From positions 64,001 to 128,000 of the forward strand of contig CAZALK010000011.1 of the NCBI GenBank assembly GCA_964486045.1: a stretch of DNA of 64,000 bases. The letters run 5' to 3'. The notes under the pieces are model-generated. The model was not told the DNA's origin. It searched no databases and was given only the letters and a program-made list of their open reading frames with translations. Below are positions 29,166 through 29,646 of this stretch, in pieces. Position 1 is the first letter of the stretch. Each line of letters starts with the position of its first letter. The position numbers and the translations under genes are program-made. Source of the DNA: an uncultured archaeon (lineage in GTDB: Archaea > Asgardarchaeota > Lokiarchaeia > Sigyniarchaeales > SOKP01).

Positions 29166-29434
29166 TTATCTTTCCAATTGGAAGTTGACTTGAACTCTCA
29201 CTCTATTCACAAGCTACACGAAAAGTGTCTCTTTATATATGAGCTTGTCAACATCCTCTTTAACTTTAACGTCCGATTCAATTATCTGAATATTTCTAAT
29301 TCCACGTAAAGTTTTTTTAGCTTCTTCATATGCGTTTTTAGTTGAATAAAACATGAGTATTTTTATCCTTTAACCGCATCTGCCCAATTTTTTTCACTAG
29401 TTGATACTAATTGAATTGACTTATAAACTGGCAT
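29166..29434 (-). CDS. Dodecin (flavin-binding protein), split into three exons: 29434-29370, 29337-29235, 29204-29166
   Basis: Joined exons (65+103+39=207 nt) give MPVYKSIQLVSTSEKNWADAVKNAYEEAKKTLRGIRNIQIIESDVKVKEDVDKLIYRVRVQVNFQLER*, fitting the dodecin pattern VYK.I.LV..S...W.DA..NA...A.KTLR.I...YRV....F.LE. Confidence 0.88.
29205..29234 (-). other. Putative BHB-type intron 2 (30 nt) in dodecin
   Basis: GCTC-ATAT-AT^A-AAG..ACAC-loop-GTGT..CTT-GTGA-AT^A-GAGT; contains an in-frame TAG. Confidence 0.75.
29338..29369 (-). other. Putative BHB/BHL-type intron 1 (32 nt) in dodecin
   Basis: GGTT-AA^A-GGATAAAA-loop-TTTTATTC-AACT-AA^A; shifts frame and contains an in-frame TAA. Confidence 0.8.
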
Positions 29435-29646
29435 TCTAGATCACTTTTTTTTTAATATTTTTGGATGTTAATATGTTTTTTTGTAAGATAATTTGTTATA
29501 GGGTACTATTTAAATATTTCTTAGAAAACTCATAATCCTAAAAATTTATAATGAGAAAATATAATCTCATTGATATTATCTTAAATCTAGAAAAAATCAA
29601 AAAAAAAATTGAAAAGTGAATATAATTGTTATCAATAATTCAATGA

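What the first reader, a model, noticed from the sequence alone, without database searches (positions are those of the whole stretch)
29205..29234. Dodecin intron 2: 30-nt BHB with an in-frame amber stop
Sense RNA reads GCUC-AUAU-AU^A-AAG-AG-ACAC-(UUUUC)-GUGU-AG-CUU-GUGA-AU^A-GAGU. Both bulges are 3 nt and the outer and inner helices are paired. The central helix is weak (A.A, U.G, A-U, U.G). The insert is a multiple of 3 but carries TAG, so retention would remove the last beta-strand. Cuts restore L-I-Y-R-V-R-V. Its sequence is unrelated to intron 1, implying an independent insertion. The weak helix could make this the slower or regulated splice (inference).
Basis: partly seen in the sequence, partly recalled or inferred. 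Interest (0 to 1): 0.75.

Follow-up and report, generated by a model that had tools for sequence, protein, structure and literature searches.

The report
tRNA-type mini-intron in Asgard dodecin gene
A 30-base insert that breaks a small protein gene of a Lokiarchaeon (an Asgard archaeon) is very probably a real intron cut out of the mRNA by the tRNA-splicing enzymes, because relatives keep the same insert, its imperfect cutting signal and the coding sequence behind it; papers confirm this kind of intron inside a coding sequence for only one archaeal gene.

Summary
Confirmed. Removing 29234-29205 (minus strand) and the upstream 32-nt insert gives a 68-aa dodecin. I found six distinct orthologous introns at the same site. 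Behind them exon 3 shows 10 synonymous and 0 amino-acid changes, even where the insert is 31 or 37 nt and shifts the frame. So it is removed from the RNA, not read through. The weak central helix is inherited (A.G in relatives, A.A here), not decay. The amber codon is incidental (TAA in most). Other intron bodies with perfect helices use the same site, including in Lokiarchaeum GC14_75. Across 126 dodecin genes, 24 inserts of 30-34 nt occupy 8 sites, all BHB-shaped. The genome has a heteromeric EndA and RtcB, and no PylS. No tRNA-intron donor was found. Slower or regulated splicing is untested, and no RNA reads were available. This scan found the same class before on other DNA (histone, SelD, thiolase, Elf1); in print only cbf5 (coding) and HVO_1309 (5' UTR) are documented.

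The parts
29205..29234 (-). Intron 2 (30 nt): hairpin AAG/CUU, 2x2 AG/AG loop, ACAC/GUGU, 5-nt loop; 3' central strand GUGA; in-frame TAG at 29216-29214
29237..29244 (-). Exon half of the BHB: outer helix strand GCUC (29244-29241) and central strand AUAU (29240-29237); 5' bulge AU^A follows, cut between 29235 and 29234
29200..29206 (-). 3' bulge AU^A (cut between 29205 and 29204) and outer helix strand GAGU (29203-29200)
29180..29256 (-). Long exon 2/exon 3 stem around the intron (GGA-GUUGAC-AGCUC with GAGUU-GUCAAC-UCC), -16.1 kcal/mol vs -4.8 +/- 2.3 in 121 genes without this intron
29370..29434 (-). Dodecin exon 1 (ATG at 29434)
29338..29369 (-). Intron 1 (32 nt, frameshifting, BHB with central GGUU/AACU); its internal ATG makes gene callers report a false 46-aa ORF
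29235..29337 (-). Dodecin exon 2
29166..29204 (-). Dodecin exon 3 (RVRVQVNFQLER*), the C-terminal strand; only synonymous changes among intron-2 carriers
29441..29444 (-). GTGA Shine-Dalgarno-like motif upstream of the ATG, present in most relatives
29483..29514 (-). TATA-like box TTTAAATA (29514-29507) and conserved downstream element TAACAAAT-A-CTTAC (29498-29483)
   Evidence: read directly; conserved in relatives; function inferred

Best explanation
The insert is a protein-dependent, tRNA-type intron in the dodecin pre-mRNA. The transcript folds so that the last exon-2 bases (AUAU) face the intron's GUGA, with 3-nt A-led bulges on either side, closed by an intron hairpin inside and an exon-exon stem outside. 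The heterotetrameric EndA cuts after the second base of each bulge and RtcB joins the exons, restoring Tyr56-Arg57. Both introns must be removed to make the 68-aa protein. The central helix has only three pairs, a trait of the whole intron family; it is tolerated by a broad-specificity EndA, probably helped by the flanking stems. Shown: sequence, frame restoration, orthologues, covariation, selection on exon 3, presence of the enzymes. Inferred: that the cut and ligation happen in vivo, that EndA and RtcB do it, and that the exon stem compensates for the weak helix.
For: Arg57 in 104/104 intronless homologues fixes the junction. Six distinct orthologous introns at the same site (L247-L250, L259, L260; 24-26 of 30 identical for the 30-nt ones) show 10 synonymous and 0 amino-acid changes in exon 3, where 24% of neutral changes would be synonymous (p about 7e-7, sequences related so optimistic). 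Two of them are 31 and 37 nt long and shift the frame. Over 12 site-168 carriers the structure has 84.8% paired cells and 20 two-sided changes, against 25-53% paired when slid. The outer helix is 4/4 paired in 14/16 carriers vs 19/121 non-carriers. 22 of 24 dodecin inserts have a 4/4 central helix exactly in the protein-restoring register. A homology-first scan of this genome gave 20 disruptive inserts of 13-70 nt, 11 of them exactly 30 nt and BHB-like. EndA alpha has the Tyr/His/Lys triad and the crenarchaeal-type loop with its Lys (best PDB match 3P1Z); a second, His-less subunit and RtcB are present. Asgard EndA is reported as (ab)2 with the L1 loop that gives broad specificity (PMC5829648).
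Against: No spliced RNA or peptide was seen; the exact 68-aa product is absent from 15 billion predicted proteins (expected, since these come mostly from DNA). The BHB is not the minimum-energy fold and costs 4.8 kcal/mol to form, among the highest of the set. The central helix has one mismatch and two U.G pairs. Selection on exon 3 is measured across the family; a very recent loss of function in this one genome cannot be excluded.
Confidence: 0.88

Rival explanations
1. The intron is spliced, and its conserved suboptimal helix makes it a rate-limiting or condition-dependent switch for dodecin output (retention gives a 62-aa product without the last strand). This adds to the best explanation rather than replacing it.
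For: The first-pair mismatch is kept in all 7 family members while other parts of the intron vary. The BHB cost is 4.8-6.7 kcal/mol in the family vs mostly 0.4-3.5 for other introns and 2.8 for intron 1. A competing fold pairs exon ACAAGCU with intron AGCUUGU.
Against: About 90% of genomes in the family have no dodecin intron, and other bodies at the same site have perfect helices (L065 group, L255-L257). The same first-pair mismatch occurs in unrelated introns (L117 at nt 47; C22:-58742), which suggests tolerance. A single ancestral mismatch inherited by kin is one event. The energy model ignores non-canonical pairs and enzyme binding.
Confidence: 0.2
2. The dodecin gene in this genome is a pseudogene: an intron-like insert whose helix has decayed and is no longer removed.
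For: Weakest central helix among the site-168 introns (A.A, U.G, A-U, U.G); no RNA evidence; a rare Ser at position 11.
Against: Exons intact; dN 0.04-0.06 vs dS above 1 against the nearest intron-1 carriers; no amino-acid change in 24 codons around the intron vs six orthologues; promoter and GTGA motifs conserved; it is the only dodecin found in the genome; its BHB cost is the lowest in its own family.
Confidence: 0.06
3. The insert is translated through: TAG read as pyrrolysine or suppressed, giving a 10-aa insertion.
For: Length is a multiple of 3; the only in-frame stop is TAG; ARAGORN lists CUA-anticodon tRNAs.
Against: No PylS above cut-off. The CUA calls are inside intron-containing tRNA genes and are probably mis-parses. 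Orthologues have TAA, two stops, or 31/37-nt lengths. Intron 1 shifts the frame and needs removal anyway. No homologue has a stop-free insertion here.
Confidence: 0.01
4. The insert is bypassed or removed by a route other than EndA/RtcB (ribosomal hopping over the hairpin, DNA-level excision, or another nuclease).
For: A 3-nt ATA repeat flanks the insert; the hairpin is compact; the central helix is poor.
Against: Bulge-helix-bulge geometry with A-led bulges recurs at 8 sites and in all reading phases, matching EndA geometry and the cbf5 precedent (PMC2738675). Several introns lack a terminal repeat (L014 has a single possible register).
Confidence: 0.05

Closest known systems
cbf5 pre-mRNA intron of Crenarchaeota (Watanabe 2002; Yokobori 2009, PMC2738675)
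   Same: Short intron inside a coding sequence, relaxed BHB built partly from exon, cuts between the second and third bulge bases, host with hetero-oligomeric EndA, patchy gain and loss.
   Different: cbf5 has one intron at one position in one gene, with splicing shown by cDNA. Here two introns lie in one 207-nt CDS, at least 8 positions are used across one family, several bodies share a site, lengths cluster at 30 nt, other genes of the genome carry them too, and the host is an Asgard archaeon. Splicing is not shown here.
HVO_1309 BHB intron of Haloferax volcanii (PMC7714728; review PMC10485636)
   Same: An mRNA processed at a BHB by the tRNA splicing endonuclease.
   Different: It lies in the 5' UTR, does not interrupt the reading frame, and is cut by a homodimeric enzyme.
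Non-canonical BHB introns of Asgard and Thermoproteales tRNA genes (PMC11291895; bioRxiv 10.64898/2026.10.13.758758)
   Same: Same motif and enzyme, repeated independent gains, no clear donor; this genome's tRNA genes carry inserts of similar size.
   Different: Those are in tRNA; neither paper reports introns in protein-coding genes. No tRNA intron here resembles intron 2.
HAC1/XBP1 non-spliceosomal mRNA intron (own knowledge)
   Same: An mRNA intron removed by an endonuclease and sealed by the tRNA ligase, changing the protein product.
   Different: Cut by Ire1 at two stem-loops and signal-regulated; here EndA/BHB, and regulation is only a possibility.

Membership tests
Archaeal BHB (EndA-type) intron | Two 3-nt bulges on opposite strands around a 4-bp central helix | tested here: met
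   Met in relaxed form: 3 of 4 pairs (A.A, U.G, A-U, U.G; A.G, U-A, A-U, U.G in orthologues); 4 of 4 in other bodies at the same site
Archaeal BHB (EndA-type) intron | Flanking helices (exon h, intron h') supported by covariation | tested here: met
   Outer helix 93.8% paired; inner helix has 5 pairs with two-sided changes; slid controls much lower
Archaeal BHB (EndA-type) intron | Cuts after the second bulge base restore the functional product | tested here: met
   Restores L-I-Y-R-V-R-V; Arg57 invariant in 104 homologues
Archaeal BHB (EndA-type) intron | Host encodes EndA able to cut relaxed motifs, and RtcB | tested here: met
   Catalytic and structural EndA subunits, loop with conserved Lys aligned to 3P1Z, intact RtcB; breadth of specificity taken from PMC5829648
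Archaeal BHB (EndA-type) intron | Exon junction present in RNA; cleavage depends on EndA | not testable with these tools
   No read-level data; exact spliced protein not in the collection
cbf5 intron family | Located in cbf5 at the catalytic Asp codon | tested here: not met
   Host gene is a dodecin; it works like the cbf5 intron but is not one
Group I / group II self-splicing intron or other Rfam RNA | Ribozyme core of hundreds of nt | tested here: not met
   30 nt; no Rfam match at E<=1
Pyrrolysine/amber read-through | PylS present and TAG conserved in frame | tested here: not met
   No PylS over cut-off; stop identity and frame vary
Dodecin (PF07311) | About 64-70 aa family profile over the full length | tested here: met
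   Intact 94%-identical homologue 61.3 bits; PDB dodecins match residues 2-67
Flavin-binding dodecin | Flavin-stacking Trp and the Gln of the last strand (own knowledge) | tested here: not met
   Position 37 is Asn and 57 is Arg; best PDB match is M. tuberculosis Rv0379, 3ONR; ligand unknown

The most novel reading that the evidence does not exclude
Lokiarchaeia of this family run a genome-wide, non-spliceosomal mRNA intron system of about 30-nt BHB elements that spread and are lost quickly, reuse favoured exon sites, shape synonymous codons around them, and in cases such as this one keep a suboptimal helix so that EndA supply controls protein output by intron retention, a prokaryotic counterpart of regulated unconventional splicing.
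Probability: 0.18. Interest if true: 0.88.

Novelty: new variant of a known kind. Interest (0 to 1): 0.63.

Why it matters
If spliced, multi-intron protein genes exist in the closest prokaryotic relatives of eukaryotes and use the tRNA machinery, which the papers I could search document for one coding sequence (cbf5). The dodecin gene gives a compact test system for intron gain and loss: 8 sites in 207 nt, several bodies at one site, and all four presence/absence combinations of two introns. It also shows an annotation blind spot: a Pfam search misses this gene, gene callers report a 46-aa fragment, and the original Lokiarchaeum GC14_75 gene Lokiarch_40590 is recorded as a 65-aa product that ends in intron-derived residues. 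Intron 2 in particular maps how imperfect a central helix can be and still be kept by selection.

Tried and rejected
Spliced DP in pure Python timed out (redone in 15, 21). A de novo genome scan for BHB plus coding potential showed no excess in the frame-restoring class: too noisy, replaced by homology-first scans. A donor for intron 2 was sought by ungapped search, a family PWM and alignment to 24 tRNA loci; nothing beat shuffles (the tRNA list is incomplete). Register 167 was rejected (not conserved, U-led bulge, higher cost). Register 170 was rejected (gives Lys57, never seen). Register 163 was rejected (gives LMNR). A recent recombination patch from the GC14_75-like lineage was considered because exon nt 135-207 resemble that group (permutation p<=0.001), but the intron bodies are only 14/30 identical and true orthologues exist elsewhere, so structural constraint or older exchange is as likely; left open. 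The two flanking-gene trees disagree on this genome's nearest kin. An exact look-up of two spliced proteins found nothing. Rfam and bacterial promoter/terminator scans were uninformative. One region fetch failed on contig length. Nine literature searches found no report of coding-sequence BHB introns in Asgard archaea; the library lacks most subscription papers.

Full report
Setting. The window lies on contig C11 of a 5.18-Mb, 31% G+C genome. Its relatives are titled Promethearchaeota (Lokiarchaeia), and Loki_b32 falls in the same genus. The finding sits in a small minus-strand gene between a thiolase and a TPR protein.

Observation. Three colinear pieces encode a 68-aa dodecin only when a 32-nt insert (29369-29338) and this 30-nt insert (29234-29205) are removed. 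Retaining insert 2 alone gives 62 aa ending LIYKETLFV*. Residues 55-67 align to the C-terminal segment of solved dodecins, which is the last beta-strand (own knowledge), so retention removes it. A separately assembled Logan contig has the same letters. Shuffles of the insert reach its pairing features in 0.12% of cases. The region as a whole is not unusually stable and its minimum-energy fold is not the BHB.

Which cut. An ATA repeat makes CDS registers 166-169 equivalent at the mRNA level. Arg57 is present in 104 of 104 intronless homologues, which excludes 170 (Lys) and 163. It alone has A as first base of both bulges, as in all 23 other dodecin inserts scored without that criterion.

Relatives. 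Most homologues are an uninterrupted 207-nt CDS, and none has a translated 10-aa insertion. Of 114 genomes of the family with a dodecin match, 12 carry inserts (two more are cut at contig ends). With metagenome loci, 24 inserts of 30-34 nt in 22 of 126 genes occupy eight sites (nt 14, 34, 47, 65, 143, 156, 168, 170), and 22 have a fully paired central helix in the protein-restoring register. Some metagenome loci are near-duplicates, so these are not 24 independent events. Intron 1 shows a U-A to C-G change in its central helix between this genome and G013. Outside the family the dodecin matches listed were almost all full length (two weak ones not examined).

Orthologues of intron 2. Searching with the truncated 46-aa ORF recovered products ending in KDTLVV, KETHIE, KETLLV and similar. 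Their DNA shows the same intron at the same site: AAG/CUU and ACAC/GUGU stems and a 3' central strand GUAG, i.e. A.G, U-A, A-U, U.G. The mismatch at the first pair is therefore inherited; this genome's GUGA is a variant, and its BHB cost is the lowest of the family (4.8 vs 5.2-6.7). Lengths are 30, 31 and 37 nt; the stop is TAG, TAA, two stops or a frameshift. Behind all of them exon 3 has 10 synonymous and no amino-acid changes, against a neutral synonymous share of 24%. That is the strongest argument that the insert leaves the RNA before translation. L247, L250, L259 and L260 carry both introns, L248/249/251/254 only intron 2, L008 and L118 only intron 1, so the two assort separately.

Same site, other bodies. 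L065/066/069/076 and L255-L257 have 30-nt introns at nt 168 with 4/4 central helices and 12-15 of 30 identity to intron 2 (p 0.04-0.08 for the L065 group). The L065 group includes Lokiarch_40590 of Lokiarchaeum GC14_75, whose annotated product is identical to the unspliced L065 product. All share the geometry and an invariant closing C-G pair. On 12 carriers the structure has 84.8% paired cells and 20 two-sided changes; no shuffle reaches that, and slid versions give 25-53% (related rows inflate the shuffle test). They may be diverged descendants of one old intron or separate arrivals at a favoured site; I cannot decide.

Exon constraint. The outer helix is fully paired in 14 of 16 carriers and 19 of 121 non-carriers. 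A longer exon 2/exon 3 stem folds at -16.1 kcal/mol here, -11.5 to -14 in most carriers, and -4.8 +/- 2.3 in non-carriers. This genome and the L065 group build it from GUUGAC/GUCAAC and GUUGAU/AUCAAC; most of the closer orthologues use UGGAC/GUCCA. I infer that synonymous sites are held to clamp a weak motif. The exons also look mosaic and the flanking-gene trees conflict, so exchange of alleles probably contributes.

Machinery and context. The genome has a catalytic EndA subunit with the Tyr/His/Lys triad and a loop aligned to the A. pernix enzyme including its Lys, a second subunit without the His, and RtcB. Asgard EndA is described as (ab)2 with the loop that permits relaxed motifs (PMC5829648). 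PylS is absent. A homology-first scan, blind to BHB, found 20 disruptive inserts; 11 are exactly 30 nt and BHB-like, in two histone genes (two each), two small GTPases, and SelD-, GH57- and thiolase-like genes by peptide resemblance. This is a lower bound, limited to genes with a paralogue or a sampled orthologue. It agrees with earlier notes of this scan, which I treat as leads. No donor for intron 2 was found among tRNA loci or elsewhere in the genome.

Mechanism. Most likely (0.88) EndA cuts both bulges and RtcB ligates, as for cbf5 (PMC2738675). The RNA step itself is inferred. That intron 2 is slower than intron 1 is plausible from the energy cost (4.8 vs 2.8 kcal/mol) and a competing exon-intron pairing. 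That it is a regulatory switch is less likely (0.2): most relatives have no intron, other bodies at the site are perfect, and the same mismatch occurs in unrelated introns.

Comparison and verdict. It works like the cbf5 intron and meets every sequence-level test for an archaeal BHB intron; the RNA-level test could not be run. Papers name cbf5 and the HVO_1309 5' UTR as the archaeal mRNA cases (PMC7714728, PMC10485636), and Asgard intron papers cover tRNA only. I class it as a new variant of a known kind. The class has been seen repeatedly by this scan, so the added value here is the orthologous family, the inherited imperfect helix, the exon constraint and the eight-site hot spot in one tiny gene. 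Interest 0.63.

Noticed in passing
G000 C6:+146615 and +146775; C12:+112768 and +112898 (contig coordinates): Two histone-like genes, each broken by two 30-nt BHB inserts.
   Followed up: partly
G000 C1:+29542 and C1:+354340: Two Rab-like small GTPase genes broken by 30-nt BHB inserts with perfect central helices.
   Followed up: partly
G000 C1:+759271, C22:-58742, C7:+54809, C5:+195271, C3:+186169: Further 27-30-nt BHB-like inserts in SelD-like, GH57-like, dehydratase-activator-like, unnamed and thiolase-like genes; C22 has the same first-pair mismatch as intron 2; the C3 register is unresolved.
   Followed up: partly
window 29498-29483 (minus strand): A 16-nt element just downstream of the dodecin TATA-like box is conserved in nearly all relatives although the spacer around it varies; possible regulator site.
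   Followed up: no
window 29434-29166 (minus strand): This dodecin subfamily has Asn37 and Arg57 where flavin-binding dodecins have Trp and Gln, is closest to M. tuberculosis Rv0379 (3ONR), and usually follows a thiolase gene; its ligand may not be flavin (CoA is a guess).
   Followed up: partly
L027 (G019) versus L118/L155 (G100): Two genomes nearly identical in both flanking genes carry clearly different dodecin alleles, one with intron 1 and one without, suggesting whole-gene replacement.
   Followed up: partly
dodecin CDS nt 65 and nt 143 in relatives: Two different insertion sites share the exon context GGTTAA, and their introns end in AACTAA or GACTAA, hinting at a preferred target or copying between sites.
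   Followed up: no
L008, L092 and about 20 intronless loci: Many dodecin genes appear to start with ATT or ATA instead of ATG, behind a normal GTGA motif.
   Followed up: no
G107 C185/C299 and G094 C96: Assemblies break inside the dodecin gene; mixed intron-plus and intron-minus alleles could cause this.
   Followed up: no
L255, upstream part of the gene near CDS nt 34: A further two-intron dodecin: an extra insert near the start in addition to its site-168 intron.
   Followed up: no
G000 tRNA genes, e.g. C1:126761-126862 and C1:626229-626331: ARAGORN calls tRNA-Pyl and tRNA-Stop genes that look like ordinary tRNAs mis-parsed because of about 30-nt non-canonical introns.
   Followed up: partly
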